A program made the translations under genes and the position numbers. The notes under the pieces were generated by a model. The model was not told the DNA's origin. It ran no database searches and was given only the letters and a program-made list of their open reading frames with translations. 64,000 bases of DNA. Source: the human T2T-CHM13v2.0 reference genome, Homo sapiens. This document shows, piece by piece, positions 900 through 58,097 of this stretch (positions within the stretch are counted from its first letter, which is position 1; each line of letters starts with the position of its first letter). The stretch lies in NCBI RefSeq assembly GCF_009914755.1, contig NC_060942.1. One strand, 5' to 3'.

Positions 900-1075
900 T
901 TTCTGAATTAATTTAAAAAATAATTTTAATGCTTATAGATCCCCTGCCTCTCCTGCTAGATTATGACCTCTTCAGCAGAAGGCCTGGGTAATTTTTTTCT
1001 TCCTATCTTGTATCTCTTCTAGAACTTGATAGCAAGTAGGTGCTCAAACAAGTACCTGTTTATGGACAGATGAAC
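900..1075 (+). mobile_element. L2 3'-end fragment
   Basis: CTCTCCTGCTAGATTATGACCTC...GTAGGTGCTCAAACAAGTACCTGTT resembles the L2 3' terminus. Confidence 0.55.
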
Positions 1076-4449: not shown

Positions 4450-5470
4450 ACATATCTATATCTATATCTATATCTATATCTGTATCTATATCTATATCTA
4501 TCTATATGTATATATATATCTTTTTTTATTATACTTTAAGTTCTAGGGTACATGTGCACAATGTGCAGGTTTGTTACATAGGTATACATGTGCCATGTTG
4601 GTTTGCTGCACCCATTAACTCATCATTTACATTATGTATTTCTCCTAATGCTATCCCTCCCCCTGCCCCCTACCCCATGACAGGCTCCGGTGTGTGATGT
4701 TCCCCATCCTGTGTCCAAGTGTCTCATTGTTCAATTCCCACCTATGAGTGAGAATTTGCGGTGTTTGGTTTTCTGTCCTTGTGATAGTTTGCTCAGAATG
4801 ATGGTTTCCAGCTTCATCCATGTCCCTACAAAGGACATGAACTCATCCTTTTTTATGGCTGCATAGTATTCCATGGTGTGTATGTGCCACATTTTCTTAA
4901 TCCAGTCTATCATTGATGGACATTTGGTTTGGTTCCAAGTCTTTGCTATTGTAAATAGTGCCGCAATAAACATACGTGTGCATGTGTCTTTATAGCAGCA
5001 TGATTTATAATCCTTTGGGTATATACCCAGTAATGGGATCGCTGGGTCAAATGGTATTTCTAGTTCTAGATCCTTGAGGAATCACCACACTGTCTTCCAC
5101 AATGGTTGAACTAGTTTACACTCCCACCAACAGTGTAAAAGCGTTCCTATTTCTCCACAACCTCTCCAGCATCTGTTGTTTCCTGATTTTTTAATGATCA
5201 CCATTCTAAACTGGTGTGAGATGGTATCTCATTTTGGTTTTGATTTGCATTTCTTTGATGACCAGTGATGATGAGCATTTTTTCATGTGTCTATTGGCTG
5301 CATAAATGTCTTCTTTTGAGTAGTGTCTGTTCATATCCTTTGCCCACTTTTTGATGGGGTTGTTTGTTTTTTTTCTTGTAAATTTGTTTAAGTTCTTTGT
5401 AGATTCTGGATATTAGCCCTTTGTCATATGGGTAGATTGCAAAAATTTTCTCCCATTCTGTAGGTTGCCG
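4450..5470 (-). mobile_element. 5'-truncated L1PA (about PA5-PA7): ORF2 C-terminus, 3'UTR and tail
   Basis: ORF 4731-4973 (MFIAALFTIAKTWNQTKCPSMIDWIKKMW...) is L1 ORF2p C-terminus; classic 3'UTR; TSD CAGAACAAGTA at 4436-4446 and 5476-5486. Confidence 0.97.
4451..4520. repeat. (TATATC)n/(TA)n microsatellite at the L1 tail
   Basis: Tandem ATATCT units directly abut the L1 poly(T) end. Confidence 0.9.
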
Positions 5471-9440: not shown

Positions 9441-10909
9441 GGTTCCCATGCAACTTCCTTACTGGGTATCCAACCCTGTGCTGGGGTTGAGAATGGTGGC
9501 GAGGAGGAAAAGCAATGCCGAAGGAGATCTGGTCCTTGTCCTAGAAGAGCTAAAGTTTCTTTGCAGGTAAGACTTAAATATACACACAACTCTTAAGGCA
9601 GAGTATGTCCTGGAATGGCACTCTTCAAAGTAGTGTTTGGTTAGGTGTTGGGGTTCTCCTGACTATAAGTGCCTCCAGCCATTAAGTTCGTCCCTATGGA
9701 ATATCACATGATGGGGTGAGGGCTCCAAGACGGAGCACATAGGACCAGATAATGTCCATATCATTGAGGATCAGTGTGTTTAGAAAATTCTTATTCTCTG
9801 ATCTCATGTTTCCACCTTCCCACCCAAACCGTTTGGTTTAAGCAAGGCCGGTGGCCCTAGGTCCTTCTCACAATAAAGTCATTTCTGCCATTAATGGCTT
9901 TACTTACCTTGGTTCCTTGTTCCCTTTGGAGGGAAGGCCCTTTTTCTCTTCCCACCAGGGTAAACCTCATTCCATTTTCCAGAGAGGCCCCAGTGCCACT
10001 GTCCTAACTATGTTTCCTGCTGCTGTGTACCAGCTCCCGCAGAGTACAGAGGTAAAAAGTCCAGAAAAGCTTGGAGGGGAAGTTTAGGGGTAAGGAGAAA
10101 ATGTGGAAAAGCTTGAGTTGAGAATGGGGCAGGAGTGTGAGAGGAAGAATGTTGTTTAAACACCTAGACGGGGTATTTCTGGATGCTGAGAGAGGTTCAG
10201 GGTGAAACCACAAATCAATTTGCATCACAGAGGAATGACTGCATGGTACTGTTTTCCTAAGGTGGGAAGTAGAAACCAATTCAAAGGGTTTTAATGACTC
10301 CCAGAGGGGCTCTGAAGGATCTCACCTGTAAGAACTGGCGAGGGTGAAAGAGAACAGGTTAGTCAGCAAGGGCAAGCCTAGCTCTCTCCAGATGTGGGGC
10401 CTCTCAGGAGCCAGGGTCAGGAGTCCAGGAGTAGAAGGAGGTGTGGGTGAGCAAGGCCTCCTGGGACTCTTATTTGCTAGCAGATGGCCCTACTGCCTGC
10501 TAACTCTGGAGATCACATCAGGCCCTAAGCTTCCTGAAGTGCAAATTGGAGTGGGAACTGGGGAGTCCAGGACCCCTCTGTCCCTGTCCATAGCACTGCC
10601 ATTGAAGGTTGAGTCAAGGATAGAGCTTCTAATACTTCTCTACTTCCCTGTGCTGGGACACTGGGGGAAAATAAGGGGTGTGCCCTCCAAGACTGCTTTG
10701 CCTGCAGTCTTATTCCTTGGCTTAAGGCATGGGCATACATATGTTACCCAGGACAAAGCATTGGAAGCTCCTTTCTTGGAAGTCACTCATATTGGGATGA
10801 GATGATCAAAGTCTTTCCAGGTGGAGCATCTTGGAGGAGACTAGGGTCTGATATGAAGAGAAGTTTTTGGCACAGGATCTTGGTGAGTGCAAGTCTAGAT
10901 GGGATCTGT

Positions 10910-10913
<4 letters not shown>

Positions 10914-10960
<47 letters not shown>
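10914..10960. repeat. (TG)n dinucleotide microsatellite
   Basis: About 20 pure TG units followed by TATGTGTG. Confidence 0.97.
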
Positions 10961-11764
10961 GTGGGGTGGGACACCTGCACCTGCATCCAGGATTCCTATG
11001 GGGTCCCCAAACCAAAGAAGATTCCAGAAATCACTTGAAAAGGGGTGATCTTAGAGACCAGGTTGTATCTTTCTTCACATTCTCAAGTCTCTTGGGCTAA
11101 GATGTGATCAATTGCTGGTCCAGTTGGATGGCCAGGAATGACTATCTGATAGTGACATTTACATATGCAGCATGACATTTTCCTCCTTGGCGATTCAATT
11201 CTTTTTCTATTTACTTTTGTTTATCATTATAGCCCCCTAAGTGCATTTAGCTCCATCAATATAAGCAATCCAGCCAGCCATACTGGCATTTTTTTTTCTC
11301 TTAAGGCTGGTTATTTCCCCAGGCCCCTTTTCTCTTGTTCTTTTTCTTATTCCCACACTGGGATATTATGTCCCTGGTGCGGCATGATTGAGCAGATGAG
11401 TCTCTTGAGAAGGACTCCCCTCTGCCTCAGGTACACTCGACTCCCCAGTGGTAAGAGAACATACAAATGGGAGCTCCAGCCCTGCAGCAGGCTGGAGATG
11501 GCACACATGGACAGGCTAGCACTCTAACCACTGGGACTCATTCCTTATAAGAGAGACTTGCAAGGAGATATGAGCTCATCTGGCACAAAGGAGCCTTATT
11601 CTAGGAGCCTGACTTACCTGCAAAACCTTTGTCCAAGCACAGGACTGCTAAGAGGTGGGGAGGAGAAAGAGAGAAACAAATGGGAGGGACAGAAGGAAAA
11701 AAGAGGAGAGGAGTGGAGGGGAGAGGGGAGAAGGAAAGGAGAGAGGGCATCTGGAAAAATGCAC

Positions 11765-20993: not shown

Positions 20994-21040
<47 letters not shown>
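20880..21040. repeat. Compound microsatellite (TA)n-(AG)n-(TA)n-(TG)n containing a 20-bp perfect inverted repeat
   Basis: Read directly; inverted repeat arms at 20936-20955 and 20959-20978. Confidence 0.95.
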
Positions 21041-21347
<307 letters not shown>

Positions 21348-31060: not shown

Positions 31061-33833
31061 TGTGTGCCCAAATGCCTCTTCTGGAGTTCCCTGCAGGTTG
31101 AACATGGACTGATCACAATAAGAAGAGGAATTTGGACCAAGTAGGGAAGATCCTCTCTCATGTAGGAACGGAAATTACTGAGCATCACTGAAGACCAGGG
31201 AGACAAGCTCTAAAGCAGGCAGCTGACCTCTGAAAAGGACAAAGAATCCCACAGTCTCAGCACCACGACTCACATGTATCAGCTTTGGGCACCGCAACTC
31301 TAGGCTATGAAAGCTTCTTTGGGGGCATCCAACCCAGACAGGTCCTGCACCTCACTGAGTAGAACACTGGTCCAGGCTTGGCTCTTCTTTCTTTACAGCA
31401 GCAGGGGGCCATGAGGCTGTGAGCACAAGCTCTCCTTCATTACCCATTTCTGCTGGGCCCCTGACTGGGGAGGCTAAGTATGGGGTGGGGGTGTTCCAAG
31501 GGTCAACAAAAGGAGGAGGATGAAGGGAAAAGCCAGCCAGCTGAGGGGAAAAGCTCTTTCTGCTATTACCCTGCCCATCGCACAGCCCCCCACCCACTCA
31601 CCTGTATGGACTAGAAGCCTGGCCCAATTGTTCCATCTTTCCCCAAAGGGCCATGAAACACACACTTAGCAATGCAGAGTGGTGGCTCCAGGCACCCTCA
31701 GCATTTACTGTAAATCACGGAGACAGGAGAGATATGAGTCCCCACCTGCAGAATCACTGAAGCAGCTACTCTGGGGATATCTTACCTGAAAATGGTTTTC
31801 CTGCTTCCTCCACAGCCCACTGGGGTTTGGGGGCCAAACACGGAGAAGCTATTCCCTGGGGCAGCATTCTCGAGTCCTGGAAAAGTGTTTTTGATATGAT
31901 CCTGACATCAAGACCCTCTTAAATGCTGGCATTTTCTGACCTTCCTTAGAACTATTTTCCCCTGAAACCGTGCACTCCATGCCCGCCCTCATGTCCTGTG
32001 GTTTTTTTATGTTCAGCCCTGATTATATGTGTTTATTATCTTCTTCCCACTAATAGACATTAAGCTCCTTAAGGGAAGGACTGGCCTTCTTTGTGGGAGA
32101 TCAGTAAATTCTATTTAATTTCTTTTTAAAAAGGTACAAGGAAAAAATTCAATCTTCTTTTTCCTAATAGACCTTTTCTCTAAATCAGCTGCTTTCTTTC
32201 CTCTGCTCAGAACAGAATGCAGTCATTCCCCTATCTAAGCCTTTATTCAGGCCATTCTCCGCTTTCTTCTCAGTCTGAGCTGATGTTTAGACTCTCAGAT
32301 GTGTTGCTCAAGCTGCTCTTGATATGTTCATTTTAACAGCATGTCGTATTCTATATAATGGGAGGAAAAAGAAGAAGTGGCTTTTTCTGCGGGGCTTCCC
32401 CTGAGTCTCCCCCTTGGCCCTAGAGCTGACCTTGTGTGTCCCAGCCATGGAAGAGGCTGTGCACAGCAGCTCAGCAGGCTTGTGCTCCAGACCAGCCAGT
32501 CCTGCCCTCTGCTCTTCATACCCAATCCCATCATCATCAGGTGGGTGATGCCCTCCAGACGCCCCCACTCAAGCACAGATGCTGCTTGGAAGGCATGGGG
32601 AGGCTCACTGGGCCCAGGCTGTCAGCATATCAACCCACATCAGTTAATCAGACTAACTTTTGTATTCTGTTGGCTCTGTCACCTCGTGGTGGGCAGTTTC
32701 CTACCCAGAGCCCCCAGCTTTCCTTTCTTGAGCCCAAATTCACATGGTAGAGCTTGTCCCCATGCAATTTGGATTTAGCAGACATCTCTATTGGTGGATT
32801 AGTGGGAGAAAGGCAACATTCCCTTTACCAAAAAGTACTGAATTTAAAAAGATTAAAACATGATTTCCCTCCCTCCACCTGCCTTCAGTGAAGATGTCTT
32901 CCCCTTAGATAAATGTCGGGCTTATTGATTATTGGATTATACATGTTGGTTTCTTGAGGTCATTAGGCAAGGACACATGTGGATGCCCTTTGTAGGGTGC
33001 CATAATTTCCAGTGTTGACTGCAGAGAAGTGGATTCTCTGCGGGAAAGGGGAACCTTGAGTGGGCTGGGCCTCTCTTGCCTTGCTCCCTTGGCTGTGGAG
33101 CTTGTGAGGGTCCCAGTGAACTTGAATTAGGCCCCATGTGGTGGGCTCTGTTGCCTCACACCAACATCCTGTTTTGTCAGGCTATCCCGGTGGTGCCCAA
33201 CCTCTTAGCTTATTTTGCTTATTTTACCCCTGAGTCTGGTTATGTTTCAGTTTGGGCAGAATGCAGGTAAGACGTGTGTGTGCCCAGCCTGGCTGTGAAT
33301 GTGGTAGTGAGTGAGAGTCTCCTCAGGACAGCCTGGCTCAGTGGCAGGTGCAGGTGGCCAAGGGCCAGCTTCTCCCTGTCCCTTGTGGGCAGAGTCTTCA
33401 GCATTGCCAACCCTGAGCGATGTGGGTTTATGTCAGAGGGAGAGGTGGTTTCCTTGTCAATTCCCTACAGGATTGCTTTAGGCAGAGGTCTTCATTGCTG
33501 CAGTTAGAGTCCATTTATTTTCCGCACCTACACGAATGATCGTATGAGAAAATGTGGCATAGGGTGTAGTTTTACAACAGGGCAGATAGAGACAAACTCT
33601 GCTGGTAGAATGGAGGGAGATTTCAGGGGTTTGGGAGGTTTGAGAGTGAGTCAGAACTTGCCGAGGACAGAACAGGAAGAGCATGTGATCTTTGAGGGCA
33701 TGTTTTGTCCCCAGAAGAGAGCTGAGCCAGTAAAAGGGTGGGGGCATCTGGGAAACAGATGGGAGGTGGGGGTGGGGGGAGTGAAAGGCCATCAGGCTTT
33801 AGTGACACACAAAACCTTGAGTGTGACCAGGAA

Positions 33834-34162
33834 TTTGGATTTCTGTCTATAACAGGGAGCACCCTTCTGAAGGCAGTATAGGTTGGTTTGATTTAGAAAA
33901 CTCACTTAGGAGGCTGGAGTGATTCATCACTCCAGCTGGATTGCATTTTTCCAGGAAGAAGGCCTCCTTGAGAAGAAGATGGGTGAGTGAAGGCAACAAG
34001 CAATTGACATGGATCGAACATCTACACCGGGTAGCTTTGTGTGCGGCTCTCTCGGGGCTTGTGGCTGTCTATAGAGAAGCCCAGAAAGTGAAGGGTTTTC
34101 TAAATCAAACCAACTTATACTGCCTTCAGAAGGGCGCTCCCTTTTATAGACAGAAATCCAAA
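33834..34162. repeat. 68-bp inverted repeat (33834-33901 / 34095-34162) with a 193-bp spacer
   Basis: Manual alignment of arm 1 to the reverse complement of arm 2: 65/68 identical, no gaps. Confidence 0.97.
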
Positions 34163-35108
34163 CAGAATTCTGGCATAAAGAGGAGTTTGGCTGCACAGCA
34201 ATGACTTCTTCAGTAGCCTTTTGTTCCTTGTTGAGGGAGGGTCTGTGGTCACTGAGGGCCAAGGGCCATAGCGCTCAGGTTTTGGAAATGGCCCCTTGAA
34301 GAAGCCTGTGGGAAGTGAATTGCAGCTGTGATTCAAGTCAGGTCAACCAGAAGTTTCAGAGTTCATGGTGAGCCCAGGACACCCTCTTTCCTGGGGGTCA
34401 GCTGAGGCAGTAGAGACTGCACATCTGCACTGGGGGACCCGTCCTCTGTGCAGGGGAAACAGCCCAAATACCAAGGACTTTTAATAGGATGGCAGTGTTG
34501 CTTAGACTCCCAGGCAGTGCTGTCTAGGTGGGGAATGGGCTAGGACAGGGATAGGTGAGATTTGAAGAGGTAGAGAGCACAAAATGCAGGCATCCCTCAA
34601 AAGAAACACATCCAAATGGTTTTGCAAGTACCATTAGCTAACGTGGTTGAGTGTCTTTATGTGTAGAATTACGTAAGGAGTATGGAAGGCAGGTCAAGAC
34701 CAAAGTGAAATGGTGCGCCTGCTTTCTTGGGGTCCACTTGCCATGGAAGACACGTTCACTCATTCGTTCATCCCACAAATACTGAAATCTCACCATGAGC
34801 TGGCTCTGCACTAGATGTGGGGACATGACCCTAAAAGGGAGGGAGGCATAGCAAACTAGTATAGTGAAAGGGATAATCTGTATTGGTTTGAAAGGGATAA
34901 ACTCTCTAAATAATGCCTGTGAGGTCTTAGGAGGCTGGAGTGATGAAACTGGATTGCATTTTTCCAGGAAGAAGACCTCCTTGAGAAGAAAACGGGTGAG
35001 TGAAGGCAACAAGCAATTGACATGGATCGAGCATCTACACTGGGTAGCTTTGTGTGCGGCTCCCTGGGGGCATGTGGCTGTCTGTAGGGGACCCCAGCAA
35101 GCGAAGGG
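33905..35108 (+). repeat. Direct duplication: 33905-34095 matches 34926-35108
   Basis: Both begin CTTAGGAGGCTGGAGTGAT and end GAAGGG; over 33936-34095 vs 34949-35108 I count 14 mismatches in 160 bp. Confidence 0.97.
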
Positions 35109-35224
35109 ATACTTGTCATACACCATGATGAGAGTGACAGTCACACTTAAAATAGTGCTGGGAAGAAGGGAGGAGGGAAGGAGGGAGAGTAAAAGGAAGG
35201 AAGAACTCGTTAAGAGACCATCGG

Positions 35225-35227
<3 letters not shown>

Positions 35228-35264
<37 letters not shown>
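35228..35264. repeat. (TG)n microsatellite
   Basis: About 18 pure TG units. Confidence 0.97.
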
Positions 35265-35267
<3 letters not shown>

Positions 35268-37184
35268 AGGGAGGGGCAGCCTCAGGAGACCCGGAGGGAC
35301 CCTGTGCTTCTGTTAGTCTCCGTGATGTTGACGCTGAAGCCATGAACACACAAAGATCACAGACGGAAGGAAGAAGAGCTCCGGCTCTAGTTCCTGTGAG
35401 GTACTATGTGTCTCAGAAAAAGTATTAGAGAAGTAGGGAAATGGCTTTTTGATGCTGCTGCTGCATAAACAGGCTTCCCAGGTACAGGCGTATTTTAACG
35501 TGATGTTAAAAGACAAAGAAGGAAGAGTCGAAGTGCTGTCTTTCAGGCCTCTGTGTTGCCTCCTGAAAACCCATCTCATGGAAGTAGACCTAGGAAAGGA
35601 ACCCACCTGGCAGCAACTCCTGGGGGCTGAGGGGCAGGTTGGAGGGGGGGAAGGCAGGAAGGACACGCTGACCACTTAGGTCTCTGGCATCACACAGGGA
35701 ACTCTTGGCTAATCCTCCAGGGAAATCCCTAGAGGCTGAGGCCTGGGAAACCAGCTTCCTAAAGGGTACCCTGTACCTCAGGTTCTGATTTTTCATTCAG
35801 TTTACATAGCCTGTTTGCAGAGCCATCTTAAATATCCTTGCAGTGCATCTGGTGTCAAAGCTTAGGGCTGCCAGCAAGGTCTCCCTGCTCCGTGCCTCTG
35901 CCCATCATTCTGTCTTGGCTCGGTGAAAGGCTGCCCGAGGTATTTTTCTTGCTTGGCTTAAACATTATATCATTTGGGTTAAACATCACCCTCTTTGGCA
36001 CCCTCCTTAAGTCTAATTTATGCATTGTTTTTTTCTGGGAAGGCTTCTAGAACTACCGTACCTTCTGCCTTGGGGCTCCCAGGGCTCTATGGGAAACATG
36101 ATTACTGCACTAAACAGGCAGTCCTATAGGGGTGTGCTACTGAAATGCTGCAGCCTGAGCCCCTCATCCCTCCACGTATATTATAGTTTCTCTGCCAAGG
36201 CAACCAGTGCATGTGCCCACCCTGCCTGTGGGCTGTGAAGGCTGGCATGGGCCCTGCTCCTCACCAGGACCCTGAGCCATCCTCAGTTGGTGCTGGCTGA
36301 AGGCCCCAGCACAGGAAACACGTTCCGATTTGTCTCCACAGAGTAACTATGCTCACTGCAACACCTTTCATTCCTAATAGGGAGGATGAAAACAAGAGTG
36401 AATGCATATAAACATATTGGATTCCTAAGAGTTGGAGTGATAGAGACAGTGAGGGAATGAATTAGAGAAGGGGCGGGGATCATCAACCTGACTGGCTTTC
36501 TAATTTTATAACCCTATTGTGCCTCCCAGGTTAGCCACAGTAAACACAATCCCCTGGTGGTGGCAAGGGCTTTATATCTAAGAACTGGAAAACTACCAAA
36601 GGGACTCTTCCCCAGAATCTCTTCCCTGGAGATCCATTCACCCCACAATCCAGAGAATGTCAGTCTTCATGGGATGCTGAGATAGCTGACTCAGTTCCCA
36701 CCCCTGCCCCACACCCATCCAACCCAGAGAATTCAGTCCTGAAAAACAAAAGGATCAAGCTTTCGGGGAAATCTAACTGTACACACTGGTCACATGTCAG
36801 GGGGATGCAAAGATTCTTTTTCCTATTAATTTCCACTGTGATTTTAGAGACATTCTATAAATGCATTAGACCCCCAGCTCCTTAAGAAGGTAAGAGAATA
36901 TAAGTTATTAATTGCATACCCTACATCCAGTATAGTGCTTGGCACATAGTACGTGCTCAATAAATGATTTTCGGCTGAGATGTTGTGTGTTCTTTGCTGT
37001 TTAATTTATAGTATCTTAGTGGGCTCTGGAATTAGATGAGCCCATATGTGTGCAGCAGATACTGTGGGGAGCACACTCCAGTAGATGAAAAATGTGGTGT
37101 TCAGAGGGTGTGGCTGTTCAAGCAAGCAGCCCAAGGGGGAACCACTGTGAGGAAGCTCACAATCCCCATGTGTTTGTGTGTCTT

Positions 37185-53665: not shown

Positions 53666-53930
53666 CATATGTTCTCACTCATAGGTGGGAATTGAACAAT
53701 GAGAACACTTGGACACAGGAAGGGGAACAGCACACACCGGGGCCTGTCGTGGGGTGGGGGGAGGGGGGAGGGATAGCATTAGGAGATATACCTAATGTAA
53801 ATGATAAGTTAATGGGTGCAGCACACCAACATGGAACGTGTATACATATGTAACAAACCTGCACATTGTGCACATGTACCCTAGAACTTAAAGTATAATA
53901 AAAATATATAAGTATATAAAAATAAAAAAA
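53666..53930 (+). mobile_element. Short 5'-truncated L1PA 3'UTR with A-rich tail
   Basis: TGTTCTCACTCATAGGTGGGAATTGAACAATGAGAACAC...CATGTACCCTAGAACTTAAAGTATAATAAA; TSD AAATCTGGTTT at 53653-53663 and 53929-53939. Confidence 0.97.
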
Positions 53931-54719: not shown

Positions 54720-57700
54720 TTTTAAAATGACACCTTTTTTCAGACATTACAAGCAATGCTTAGTCGTTAAATTAAAAAATAAATACCCCGTACGATTTAA
54801 GAAGAAAATAGAACACATCTCTATTCCCACCACTTAGCTAACATTTGGTGTGCTTATTCTCTCTGTCTCTGTCTGTCTCTGCCTGTCTCTCTCTTTCATT
54901 CTCATTCACTCCTGCCCTCACCTCTCTCTCTCTGTCTTATCTACCTTTGTTTTGATTTTACAAATTTAAGTCCATATTCATGCTGTACATGATTAAGGTT
55001 ACACACTTAGTATGTACACACTTTTTCACTTATATCATGAACATCTTTGTCAAACTTTTAGAAACATTTTACCAGAGCCCTGTTTTGAAGACATGAAAGT
55101 TGTTCTCTATTCATTTTTAAATTAGGGATATATCATATGTGGGTATATTTACACACATATTTTGGAGCACATTTTAAATTGTTTCCTTAGGAAATATTGC
55201 TAAAAGTAGATTTAAAAAAATATTAAAGTGTTTGATAAACATTACTATAATATCCTCCAGAAAGTCTGAACTAATTTAAACTCCCATTAACAACATTTGT
55301 ACATATTTCCATTGCAACCTTGTTAAGAAAGTACTATTTTGATAAACAGACAAAAAGGAAATCACACAGTTGTTTAATTTGCATAAAATACTAAATACTT
55401 TCTTCTTATCATTGTTTATTTTTTGTTTCCCTTTTGTGAATTGCCTGCTTATATTCTTGTCCATTTCCTAATGATCTGTAAATGCTTTTTAAAATTTCTT
55501 TGGAGAACTCTGATAAATGCTGTGAATATTTTTCCCAGATATTGCTTTTGTTTAAAAATTAAATAATAATTTCTCCTTATAAACAGACATGTCTGATATT
55601 AAAATGTAGGTATTCCTCAATAATTTGTTTCCTTTGTTTTTAGATTTCAATCCGATTTTAAAATAACATACATTTTCTTCTGTTTTATTCTTTCTCCTTC
55701 CCTTCCTCTTTCTCTCCCTCCCTTCTTTCCTTTTTTTCATTTTACAACTAATTGGTCAGTACTTCTGGGATATGCTATAGAGCAGAAATCTAACATTTTC
55801 TTTTCCAAAAATGTAATCAGTTGTCTAAAAGCCATTACATTCTCTTCTCTCTCCCTTGATTTTAAATGTGATCTTGGTCAAATGCTGAACTTTAATTAGC
55901 ATTAGAGTCTATTTCTGAAGCTGCCTTCCTGTACCACTGGTTCATTTAATAATTTTTGCTTGAGCACCATATGGCTTTAATTACTGAGCTTGACAATATG
56001 GTAAGCATCGTTTCAGGTAGTACTAGTCCCCTTTCATTACTCTCTCTTTGAGGGGCTTCTGTGTTTATCCTTCTAGATGAATTTTTATGTTCATTTTGAA
56101 GAAAATTTTGCCATTTTGATTAAAATTTATGGAAACATGAATTCTTTTTGGAGAAAATGATATACTTACAGTATTAAGTCCTTTTGAAAAATTATTTCTT
56201 CCTACTCAGGAATTCTATTAGTTTCTCCATTTATTTAAAACTCCTTTATGCTCATCAGTAAAGTGTAACAATTTTCTTCATCAAGTGCTACCTACTTCTT
56301 ACATTTATTGCTAGATATTTTATACATTTGCTGATATTGTTGGTGGAAAGTTGTTGTGGATTGTGGAGTGTGCTGTGTGTTATGTGGATTTTGTATTTGG
56401 CCCTAATATTTTGGTTTCTTCTCTGAAGTTTTCCTTTTGCTTATTAAAATATATATTACTCATGTATTTTTTTTTGTTTTGTTGCATTGGTTAGAACTTT
56501 CAAAGTATTACGTAAAAACAGGGACACTGCCTGTATTATTTGTATTGCTGCTCATTCTAAGGTAGATGGAGGAATCGTAAAGCTGGACCTTTGGTTTCAC
56601 CATTTAACCAAGTGTCCAGTTTTAAGAGAGGTTTTTTTAAGGAAGAAAGCTCTATTCTTAGTGTATATATATATATCTTATATATACACATTTACATTTA
56701 TATATATACAATATATGTAAATTTACATAGAAATGATTTTAACCAGAAATATTATTTTTTATTTAAATATAATTTTTTCTTTAATCTTTAAATTTCTGAA
56801 GTTACATTTACTTGATCATGTGTATTGATCTCTATCTTCAGTAACCTTATGATTTTGGTTTGTGTTGATATTTTATTTTGGATTTTTGCACTTGTATTGC
56901 CAGTAAGTGGGGTTTAGAGATGTGTGCATGTGGTGGTGGTGTGTGTGTGTGTGAGTGTGTGTATTTAGGAGTGTGCTTTCTCCATCAAGTTTGGGTATTA
57001 GGGTTATGGAAAATAACCTAGAAATCTTCTGTTAAGAATATATTCTGGAATATTTTATATCACATGGAGTTTCAAATAACCCACATATTTTTCTGTGCCA
57101 TTTAGGAGGTAATACGTATTTGCCTTTTGAGATTTTTCTCTGTATTTTTGATCAGTTCAGGTAGTTTTTCTCTTTATGATTAAGTTTTGATTCACTTATG
57201 TTTTCCTAGAAAATTGCCCATTTCATCATTGTTATAAAATTTTTAAAAAAATATATGAATATATTTGTTTCCTCATTTTTAATTTTTTGTTTTTGTATCT
57301 TCTGTATCATTTACTTGCATATACTTGCTAGATATTTAGCTATTTGGCTTCTCCTTCCAAAGATCTATTCCTAGGATTTATCAATTTTCTCATTTTTAAC
57401 TCATATTTTTAAATGGTTTTATAAATTTCTGCTTTTTTTGAGTTTATCTTATTTTTCTTCTGATAACTAAGTTGGCATTTTGTTCATTTATTTTCATATT
57501 TCATTTTAAATTTTGTAGGCTTTTAAGGCCTCAGATTTCACACTGAAAACATATTGGTTGCCACACAAAAGTTTTATATATAATTTTCCATTTGTTATAA
57601 TTTTCTCAACAGTCATAAAAACATTTAATTCCAGTGTGATTTAGGAATACCTTTAAATTTTCCAAGTGGTTGTATTTTATTGTTACTTCTCTTTGTTATT

Positions 57701-57860: not shown

Positions 57861-58097
57861 AAGATGAAATTTAATTCTAAGAATTTCAAAAACACAATAG
57901 AAAGTAAAAGTTGTTGGATAGCACTGATGAGACCAGTGGGCTAGAGCACACACAGCCATTAGAGACATGAGTGATTCCATCTGAAGCTGACAGACCTTCC
58001 CACAGTCAAAGCAAAAATTATGAAATGAACCAGTGGTACAGGGAAGCAGCTTCAGAAATAGACTCTAATACTAATTAGAATAGACTCTAATACTAAT
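55893..58097. repeat. 69-bp inverted duplication (55893-55961 / 58009-58077) plus a 19-bp tandem copy (58057-58075 / 58079-58097)
   Basis: Manual alignment: 65/69 identical, ungapped. Confidence 0.93.

What the first reader, a model, noticed from the sequence alone, without database searches (positions are those of the whole stretch)
33834..35108. 68-bp inverted repeat enclosing a captured copy of sequence from 1 kb downstream
Seen: arms 33834-33901 and 34095-34162 are 65/68 reverse-complementary. Almost the whole spacer (33905-34095) is a direct copy of 34926-35108, about 91% identical by manual count. I recognise neither part as an interspersed repeat, and there is no clean TSD (left flank CCAGGAA, right flank CAGAATT). 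Inference: the simplest explanation is one multi-jump replication or repair template switch (FoSTeS/MMBIR-type). A less likely alternative is a Pack-type element whose TIRs captured local DNA. If transcribed, it forms a long dsRNA stem with one G-U, one C-U and one A-C apposition on the + strand, a plausible non-Alu ADAR substrate.
Basis: partly seen in the sequence, partly recalled or inferred. Interest (0 to 1): 0.8.

Follow-up and report, generated by a model that had tools for sequence, protein, structure and literature searches.

The report
Ancient template-switch hairpin scar on chr18
An old, one-off DNA copying accident left a 68-base inverted repeat wrapped around a copy of sequence from 1 kb away; it is a clear example of a known mutation type and shows no sign of being a mobile element or a working gene.

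Summary
Arms 33834-33901 and 34095-34162 are 65/68 complementary. The spacer, apart from 3 nt, is a direct copy of 34926-35108, with 14 substitutions in about 180 aligned positions and one complex indel.

The arm, the spacer and the surrounding 3.4 kb have no other copy in the whole T2T genome. There is no target-site duplication and no Rfam match.

New support: the only indel between the two direct copies turns 4 nt into a perfect 11-bp mini-palindrome (33913-33936), a classic short template-switch signature.

Arm and spacer divergences do not differ significantly (p=0.41). Pooled divergence is 6.9%, which suggests an event some tens of millions of years old. It also argues against an assembly artefact.

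Weak points:
- Junction microhomology is only 0-1 nt, with 3 orphan bases.
- No orthologue could be examined, so single versus stepwise origin, and which arm is original, stay open.
- The hairpin lies upstream of the annotated lncRNA start, so the ADAR idea has no support.

A second genome-unique 69-nt inverted duplication lies 22 kb downstream. This is a new member of a known kind, of modest interest.

The parts
33834..33901 (.). Left arm (A) of the inverted repeat, 68 nt
   Evidence: Unique in the genome apart from the right arm.
33902..33904 (.). Three orphan bases (TCA) between the left arm and the captured copy. They belong to neither repeat.
33905..34095 (+). B': captured direct copy of 34926-35108, filling the spacer. 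It carries a copy of the 5' splice-site motif (GG|GTGAGT at 33982|33983).
33913..33936 (.). Perfect 11-bp mini-palindrome (arms 33913-33923 and 33926-33936, centre TC) inside B'. It replaces the 4 nt GAAA of the source copy and is the only indel between B' and B.
   Evidence: As DNA it folds at -11.1 kcal/mol (z -4.65), against 0 kcal/mol for the matching stretch of B.
34095..34162 (.). Right arm (A'), the reverse complement of the left arm with 3 mismatches. Its first base, G 34095, is shared with the end of B'.
34926..35108 (+). B: the second direct copy, taken to be the source. It spans the last 70 nt of exon 1 and the first 113 nt of intron 1 of the predicted lncRNA LOC102724417, with the 5' splice site at 34995|34996.
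   Evidence: and the hub annotation for the exon end

Best explanation
This is a fixed, neutral scar of one complex templated insertion made by serial template switching of a DNA polymerase during replication restart (MMBIR/FoSTeS-like, a long-range relative of short template-switch mutations).

Proposed path, read on the + strand with the left arm as the original:
1. Synthesis left its template just after the arm.
2. It landed about 1 kb ahead and copied 183 nt (B) in direct orientation.
3. Early in that copy it made a brief snap-back that wrote the 11-bp mini-palindrome.
4. It then switched to the opposite or nascent strand and copied the 68-nt arm backwards, giving the right arm.
5. It returned to the original template at 34163.

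The mirror history, with the right arm as the original, fits equally well.

Shown: the anatomy, the exact abutment of the pieces, genome-wide uniqueness, the lack of a TSD, and the divergence of the copies. Inferred: that it was a single event, the order and polarity of the switches, the replicative rather than end-joining setting, and an age of some tens of millions of years. The element most likely has no function. As side effects it duplicates a strong 5' splice-site motif and creates a potential 68-bp stem.
For: (1) Only local copies. Against the whole assembly, the arm gives 2 of 2 local matches, the 329-nt element gives 4 of 4 local matches, and the 3.4-kb region is single copy apart from one 44-nt purine-rich match on C3.

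(2) Not a common old repeat. A sensitive blastn of 33300-35600 against 304 kb of other human DNA gives 0 hits, whereas 17 of 20 random 2.3-kb control pieces do give hits.

(3) The pieces abut exactly. The copy of B fills the spacer to within 3 nt on the left and overlaps the right arm by 1 nt. One chained event predicts this. Independent events would need a coincidence.

(4) The only indel between B' and B replaces GAAA with 12 nt that complete a perfect 11-bp palindrome with the preceding bases. This is the outcome described for template-switch mutations (PMC10710096, passages read).

(5) Arm divergence (3/68) and direct-copy divergence (14/180) do not differ (Fisher p=0.41). Pooled divergence is 17/248 = 6.9%, 95% CI 4.0-10.8%.

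(6) No TSD.

(7) Published template-switch events include inverted copies of 28 to 83 nt and combinations of inverted and direct repeats (PMC10710096). Multi-template insertions are also reported (PMC8421209, passages).
Against: Microhomology at every junction is only 0-1 nt under either polarity, and 3 nt (TCA) are untemplated. Microhomology at the junctions is part of the published MMBIR templated-insertion signature (PMC8421209). A 6-nt complementarity beside junction 2 (33902-33907 with 34086-34091) is imperfect in the source copy, which reads AAGCGA.

The arms are nominally less diverged (4.4%) than the direct copies (7.8%). This could mean two events of different age or arm-to-arm conversion, though the difference is not significant.

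The size is outside the range modelled for short-range events: a 191-nt direct piece taken from about 1 kb away. Those models expect a copied fragment of about 10 nt and search within +/-100 nt (PMC7954356) or within 100 bp (PMC8421209).

No orthologous sequence was available, so the pre-event allele was not seen. The genome search is word-seeded, so a low-copy family below roughly 80% identity could be missed. More sensitive searches were not accepted for this genome.
Confidence: 0.55

Rival explanations
1. Double-strand-break repair by end joining with templated fill-in (polymerase-theta-type snap-back and trans copying), rather than fork-based MMBIR. A break next to one arm was patched with a copy of B and a snap-back copy of the arm before ligation.
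For: Junctions have 0-1 nt of microhomology and 3 untemplated bases. From recall, this pattern is typical of end joining. A 6-nt complementarity (33902-33907 with 34086-34091) could have supported a snap-back. All templates are local.
Against: From recall, templated insertions by this route are mostly a few to a few tens of nt. Here the pieces are 68 and 191 nt, and one comes from about 1 kb away. Present-day sequence alone cannot separate this from the best explanation.
Confidence: 0.15
2. Stepwise origin. The 191-nt copy of B, the inverted copy of the arm and the mini-palindrome arose as two or three separate mutations at a template-switch-prone spot.
For: Arms are 4.4% diverged and direct copies 7.8%. 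The mini-palindrome arms are still perfect, which fits a later event. Published loci show successive template-switch events at one site, for example hsa-mir-4713 (PMC10710096).
Against: The difference in divergence is not significant (p=0.41). The homology to B ends exactly where the right arm starts, with a 1-nt overlap, and 3 nt from the left arm. Independent events would have to hit the same bases. A perfect 11-bp palindrome is also expected to survive at about 7% pairwise divergence roughly half the time (my arithmetic).
Confidence: 0.15
3. Old functional or constrained hairpin. The structure is much older than its divergence suggests and is kept by selection, as an RNA or DNA hairpin upstream of the lncRNA. 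The high arm complementarity would then reflect constraint and not youth.
For: The arms are nominally better kept than the spacer. One of the three mismatches is a G-U wobble on either strand. The window is repeat-poor, with 8% covered by hits to other DNA. The fold is very stable.
Against: There is no Rfam match in the hairpin. The only annotated transcript starts at 34576, downstream of it (hub annotation). Two of the three arm mismatches break pairing. The arm and spacer difference is not significant. No expression or conservation data could be examined.
Confidence: 0.05
4. Non-autonomous DNA transposon (MITE or Pack-type) whose 68-nt terminal inverted repeats carry captured host DNA.
For: The architecture is TIR, captured fragment, TIR. 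The upper end of the divergence interval overlaps the last DNA-transposon activity in anthropoids, given as 37 Myr (PMC2997546, abstract seen in the search listing).
Against: The arm has no copy anywhere else in 3.1 Gb (2 of 2 matches local). There is no TSD. A sensitive search against 304 kb of other human DNA finds no weak relatives. The captured fragment comes from only 1 kb away, and a transposase model does not predict that.
Confidence: 0.03
5. Assembly artefact (chimeric or fold-back read).
For: None was found. Raw reads could not be checked.
Against: The copies differ by 3/68 and 14/180 substitutions, several at CpG sites. An artefactual fold-back would give identical copies (inference).
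Confidence: 0.01

Closest known systems
Short-range template-switch mutations (TSM, four-point model). Sources: PMC7954356 and PMC10710096, passages read. The original 2017 description is recalled, not read.
   Same: A one-step creation of a reverse-complement copy of nearby sequence that gives a near-perfect hairpin. The mini-palindrome at 33913-33936 is a textbook small case. Combinations of inverted and direct repeats are among the described outcomes.
   Different: The scale and the number of switches differ. Here there is a 68-nt inverted copy 193 nt away plus a 191-nt direct copy from about 1 kb away. Published models expect copied fragments of about 10 nt and search +/-100 nt. The miRNA-forming events were 28-83 nt. 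A single two-switch TSM cannot give the direct copy.
MMBIR/FoSTeS templated insertions (MMB-TI; PMC8421209, passages read)
   Same: Insertions templated from nearby sequence, often in inverted orientation. Multi-template events occur, and germline examples exist.
   Different: The published signature includes microhomology at the junctions and templates within 100 bp. Here microhomology is 0-1 nt with 3 orphan bases, and one template lies about 1 kb away.
MITE or Pack-type DNA transposons (recalled class definition)
   Same: Terminal inverted repeats around a captured host fragment.
   Different: No TSD, no other copy of the arms in the genome, and the captured piece is from the immediate neighbourhood.
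Non-repetitive predicted long dsRNA structures of the human genome (dsRNAscan preprint, PMC11838218, passages read)
   Same: A non-repeat inverted pair of more than 25 bp that would form dsRNA if transcribed. The preprint predicts about half a million non-repetitive dsRNAs, of which 4,597 are edited.
   Different: Whether this locus is on their list, transcribed or edited was not checked. The tables were not read. The hairpin lies outside the annotated transcript.

Membership tests
Template-switch mutation (short-range TSM) | A reverse-complement copy of nearby sequence on the same chromosome | tested here: met
   68-nt arms, 65/68 complementary, 193 nt apart. Also an 11-bp perfect palindrome inside B'.
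Template-switch mutation (short-range TSM) | The ancestral allele lacks the inverted copy, and the change appears on a single branch | not testable with these tools
   No primate or other mammalian sequence is held. The own genome 'has no relatives here'.
Template-switch mutation (short-range TSM) | The whole change is explained by one excursion (two switches) | tested here: not met
   The direct copy of 34926-35108 cannot come from a reverse-complement excursion. At least three major switches are needed, plus the mini-palindrome (inference).
MMBIR/FoSTeS templated insertion | Inserted pieces are templated from nearby sequence, in direct and/or inverted orientation, and chained | tested here: met
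   B' (direct, source about 1 kb away) and the arm (inverted, source 193 nt away) abut with a 1-nt overlap.
MMBIR/FoSTeS templated insertion | Microhomology at the switch junctions | tested here: inconclusive
   0-1 nt at each junction in both polarity models, and 3 orphan nt. About 7% divergence since the event may have blurred short homologies.
MITE / Pack-type DNA transposon | Target-site duplication flanking the TIRs | tested here: not met
   The direct similarity of the flanks is no better than 14560 of 20000 same-geometry controls.
MITE / Pack-type DNA transposon | Several dispersed copies sharing the TIRs | tested here: not met
   2 of 2 genome matches of the arm are the local pair. There are 0 weak hits in 304 kb of other human DNA. 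The limit is that the genome search is word-seeded, and more sensitive searches were not accepted.
Curated RNA family (miRNA or other, Rfam 15) | A match to a covariance model at or near its gathering score | tested here: not met
   The only match in 33000-36000 at E<=1 is SCARNA7 at 16.1 bits (gathering score 65). It lies over the GT microsatellite at 35229-35292. Nothing matches in the hairpin.
ADAR-edited dsRNA | The stem is transcribed and shows A-to-G mismatches in RNA | not testable with these tools
   No RNA data are available. The annotated lncRNA starts at 34576, downstream of the hairpin (hub annotation). The fold itself is stable.

The most novel reading that the evidence does not exclude
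The hairpin locus and the second genome-unique 69-nt inverted duplication 22 kb downstream (55893-55961 / 58009-58077) may be scars of one ancient, error-prone replication-restart episode. The second pair is 4/69 diverged and has a 19-nt stutter repeat at one arm. Such an episode would have switched templates repeatedly over at least 24 kb and then been fixed, a germline 'micro-chromoanasynthesis' preserved in a repeat-poor gene desert. A further possibility is that the 68-bp stem upstream of the lncRNA start is used as a dsRNA or DNA-hairpin element.
Probability: 0.08. Interest if true: 0.55.

Novelty: new member of a known kind. Interest (0 to 1): 0.3.

Why it matters
Template switching is a recognised way of making perfect hairpins and clustered mutations in a single step. 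Catalogued germline cases, however, are mostly tens of bases long and within about 100 nt of their template.

This locus is an intermediate-scale example. It has three nested signatures: a 68-nt inverted copy, a 191-nt direct copy from 1 kb away, and an 11-bp mini-palindrome. It therefore bridges short template-switch mutations and kilobase-scale MMBIR rearrangements, and it would make a good test case for methods that search wider template ranges.

It also shows how such an event can duplicate a splice donor and create a long potential dsRNA stem from unique, non-Alu sequence. In itself it is most likely a neutral relic.

Tried and rejected
- **Extension of the inverted repeat into the flanks, and a near-TSD (CAGGAA / CAGAA).** By eye the flanks looked related, and the right flank CAGAATTCTG is itself a perfect 10-nt palindrome. 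Scored against same-geometry controls, the similarity is not beyond chance (5478 and 14560 of 20000). Dropped.
- **Extension of the copy of B leftwards into the arm (shared TTGGTTTGA...AAACTC).** 131 of 2000 shuffles score as well. Dropped.
- **Similarity of the sequence after B' to the sequence after B (a larger tandem duplication).** None was found.
- **Rfam.** Nothing matches in the hairpin.
- **More sensitive genome-wide search for diverged arm copies.** A sequence-only covariance model was not accepted for this genome. The pattern search allows at most 3 mismatches. A low-copy family below roughly 80% identity is therefore not excluded.
- **Baseline for how common such isolated inverted pairs are.** There were 0 in 20 random 10-kb pieces (one of them satellite) against 2 in the 64-kb window. 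The sample is too small, and the window was picked because of the finding, so no claim of clustering is made.
- **Literature on the locus.** There are 0 papers for LOC102724417. Supplementary tables of the template-switch and dsRNA papers were not read, so the locus could be listed there.

Full report
**1. Observation**

The repeat finder on 33000-36000 reports one inverted pair, 33834-33901 and 34095-34162. It is 68 nt long, 96% complementary, with 193 nt between the arms. It also reports one long direct pair, 33936-34095 and 34949-35108, 160 nt at 91%.

A word-7 blastn of 33500-35500 against the whole window extends the direct pair to 33905-34095 and 34926-35108, at 86.9% over 191 columns including gaps. 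Apart from (GT)n matches, it finds nothing else except a small self-complementary stretch at 33913-33936.

The 68-mer matches only these two places in the window at up to 3 mismatches, and 0 of 100 shuffles give a match. The three arm mismatches give C-U, A-C and G-U appositions on the + strand. On the - strand they would be G-A, U-G and C-A (my derivation). The + strand RNA folds at -178 kcal/mol, with z = -14.2.

**2. Fine anatomy**

The order of pieces is as follows:
- left arm, 33834-33901
- three orphan bases, TCA, 33902-33904
- B', 33905-34095
- right arm, 34095-34162, sharing G 34095 with B'

B' and B differ by 14 substitutions in about 180 aligned positions. By my reading of the contexts printed, three of these are at CpG sites. 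They also differ by a single complex indel.

At that indel B reads GAAA and B' reads 12 nt. Those 12 nt complete a perfect palindrome with the preceding bases: 11-bp arms at 33913-33923 and 33926-33936, with centre TC. As DNA this stretch folds at -11.1 kcal/mol (z -4.65). The matching stretch of B does not fold at all.

B spans the end of exon 1 and the start of intron 1 of the predicted lncRNA LOC102724417. The exon ends at 34995 according to the hub annotation. Both copies keep the GG|GTGAGT donor motif, at 34995|34996 in B and 33982|33983 in B'. Because B' includes intron sequence, it was not copied from a spliced RNA (inference).

**3. Is it a repeat family or a mobile element?**

The window's own complete assembly (3.1 Gb) could be searched.
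- The 329-nt element gives 4 matches, all local: itself, B, and the two arm cross-matches.
- The 68-nt arm alone gives 2 matches at E up to 10, both local.
- The surrounding 3.4 kb gives only itself, the arm cross-matches and one 44-nt purine-rich match on C3.

To look for old, diverged repeats I ran a permissive blastn of 33300-35600 against 304 kb of other human DNA: 20 random 10-kb pieces, 40 kb of flanks and the rest of the window. It gave 0 hits. The same search finds hits for 17 of 20 random 2.3-kb control pieces.

There is no TSD. Neither the direct nor the inverted resemblance of the flanks beats same-geometry controls. Rfam has nothing in the hairpin.

The transposon reading therefore fails two defining tests, dispersed copies and a TSD. 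Anthropoid DNA transposons are also reported inactive for the last 37 Myr (PMC2997546, abstract seen in the search listing).

One limit remains. The genome search is word-seeded, and my attempts at a more sensitive search were not accepted. A very low-copy, highly diverged family cannot be formally excluded.

**4. Age and artefact**

The arms differ at 3/68 positions and the direct copies at 14/180. These do not differ significantly (Fisher p=0.41). Pooled divergence is 17/248 = 6.9%, 95% CI 4.0-10.8%.

Measured against recalled neutral divergences (human-orangutan about 3%, human-macaque about 6-7%, human-marmoset about 11%), this puts the event at some tens of millions of years ago. That is roughly the age of the catarrhine ancestor, if the region is neutral.

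The accumulated differences also argue against an assembly artefact, which would give identical copies (inference). Raw reads could not be checked.

**5. Mechanism**

The homology to B stops exactly where the right arm starts, and 3 nt from the left arm. One chained synthesis that moved from template to template would produce this. Independent mutations would have to strike the same bases.

I therefore favour one multi-switch event: leave the template beside one arm, copy B from about 1 kb away with a brief snap-back, copy the arm in reverse, and return.

Several things remain unsettled:
- **Which arm is original.** Junction microhomology is 0-1 nt in both polarity models.
- **Replicative (MMBIR-like) or break repair with templated fill-in.** Low microhomology and 3 orphan bases lean towards end joining. 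The 68-nt and 191-nt tracts and the 1-kb reach lean towards processive synthesis.
- **One event or several.** This needs orthologues, which these tools do not hold.

Published short-range models assume much smaller events. They expect a copied fragment of about 10 nt with a search space of +/-100 nt (PMC7954356), or templates within 100 bp (PMC8421209). This locus is a larger, multi-template relative of those events and not a standard member.

**6. Function**

Nothing indicates a function. The hairpin lies 414-742 nt upstream of the annotated start (34576) of a predicted lncRNA. The ADAR-substrate idea thus lacks even evidence of transcription, and no RNA data were available.

Non-repetitive potential dsRNAs are a known class. 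A preprint predicts about half a million of at least 25 bp, of which 4,597 are edited (PMC11838218, passages). I did not read its tables.

The duplicated splice donor in B' is a testable side effect.

**7. Context**

A scan of the whole window for inverted pairs of at least 30 nt within 3 kb finds three: this one, a weak 31-nt pair, and a second strong pair at 55893-55961 / 58009-58077.

The second strong pair is 69 nt long, with 4/69 mismatches and 2047 nt between the arms. Its arm is also unique in the genome, with 2 of 2 matches local. Its right arm carries a perfect 19-nt direct 'stutter' repeat at 58057-58075 / 58079-58097, which the left arm lacks.

In 20 random 10-kb pieces of the same genome, one of them satellite, I found 0 local inverted pairs of at least 40 nt and 88% identity within 3 kb. 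In the 104 kb around the finding there are only these two plus a self-palindrome outside the window.

The sample is small and the window was selected for the finding. I note the pairing but make no claim of clustering.

**8. Verdict**

The transposon alternative is nearly excluded. The MMBIR label, the single-event claim and the ADAR idea remain untested or equivocal.

It is a new member of a known kind of mutation, probably a neutral relic. No paper in the searched library mentions the lncRNA (0 papers for LOC102724417). Interest is modest.

Noticed in passing
window 55893-55961 and 58009-58077: A second isolated inverted duplication: 69 nt, 4/69 mismatches, 2047 nt between the arms. The arm is unique in the whole genome (2 of 2 matches local). 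It lies 22 kb downstream of the finding and has a similar divergence.
   Followed up: partly
window 58057-58075 and 58079-58097: A perfect 19-nt direct repeat with 22-nt spacing at the outer end of the right arm of the second inverted pair. The left arm lacks it. It looks like a junctional stutter and suggests the right arm is the derived copy.
   Followed up: partly
whole window: The window is repeat-poor. Only 8% of it is covered by blastn hits to other sampled human DNA, which is at the low end of the 20 random 10-kb pieces (4% to 37%, plus one satellite piece at 100%). The repeats present are mostly Alu-sized pieces of about 300 nt.
   Followed up: no
window 34163-34172: The right flank of the element, CAGAATTCTG, is itself a perfect 10-nt palindrome. 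Whether it played a part in the event is unknown.
   Followed up: partly
window 35222-35264: A (GT)n microsatellite about 115 nt downstream of copy B. It matches other GT runs in the window (20994-21043, 10899-10973) and draws a sub-threshold SCARNA7 Rfam hit of 16.1 bits.
   Followed up: no
window 908-972 and 1512-1575: A short local direct repeat, 65 nt at 83% identity, about 600 nt apart. Its genome copy number was not examined.
   Followed up: no
L026 (G000:C18:37872001-37882000), window coordinates -2742 to -2644: A self-complementary stretch of about 100 nt at 88%, just upstream of the window, with weaker related pieces near -1860 to -1798.
   Followed up: no
window 4503-4754 and 53672-53924: An inverted pair, 253 nt at 91.7%, 49 kb apart. 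Both members lie in stretches that NCBI masks as repeats, so they are probably two copies of an interspersed repeat.
   Followed up: no
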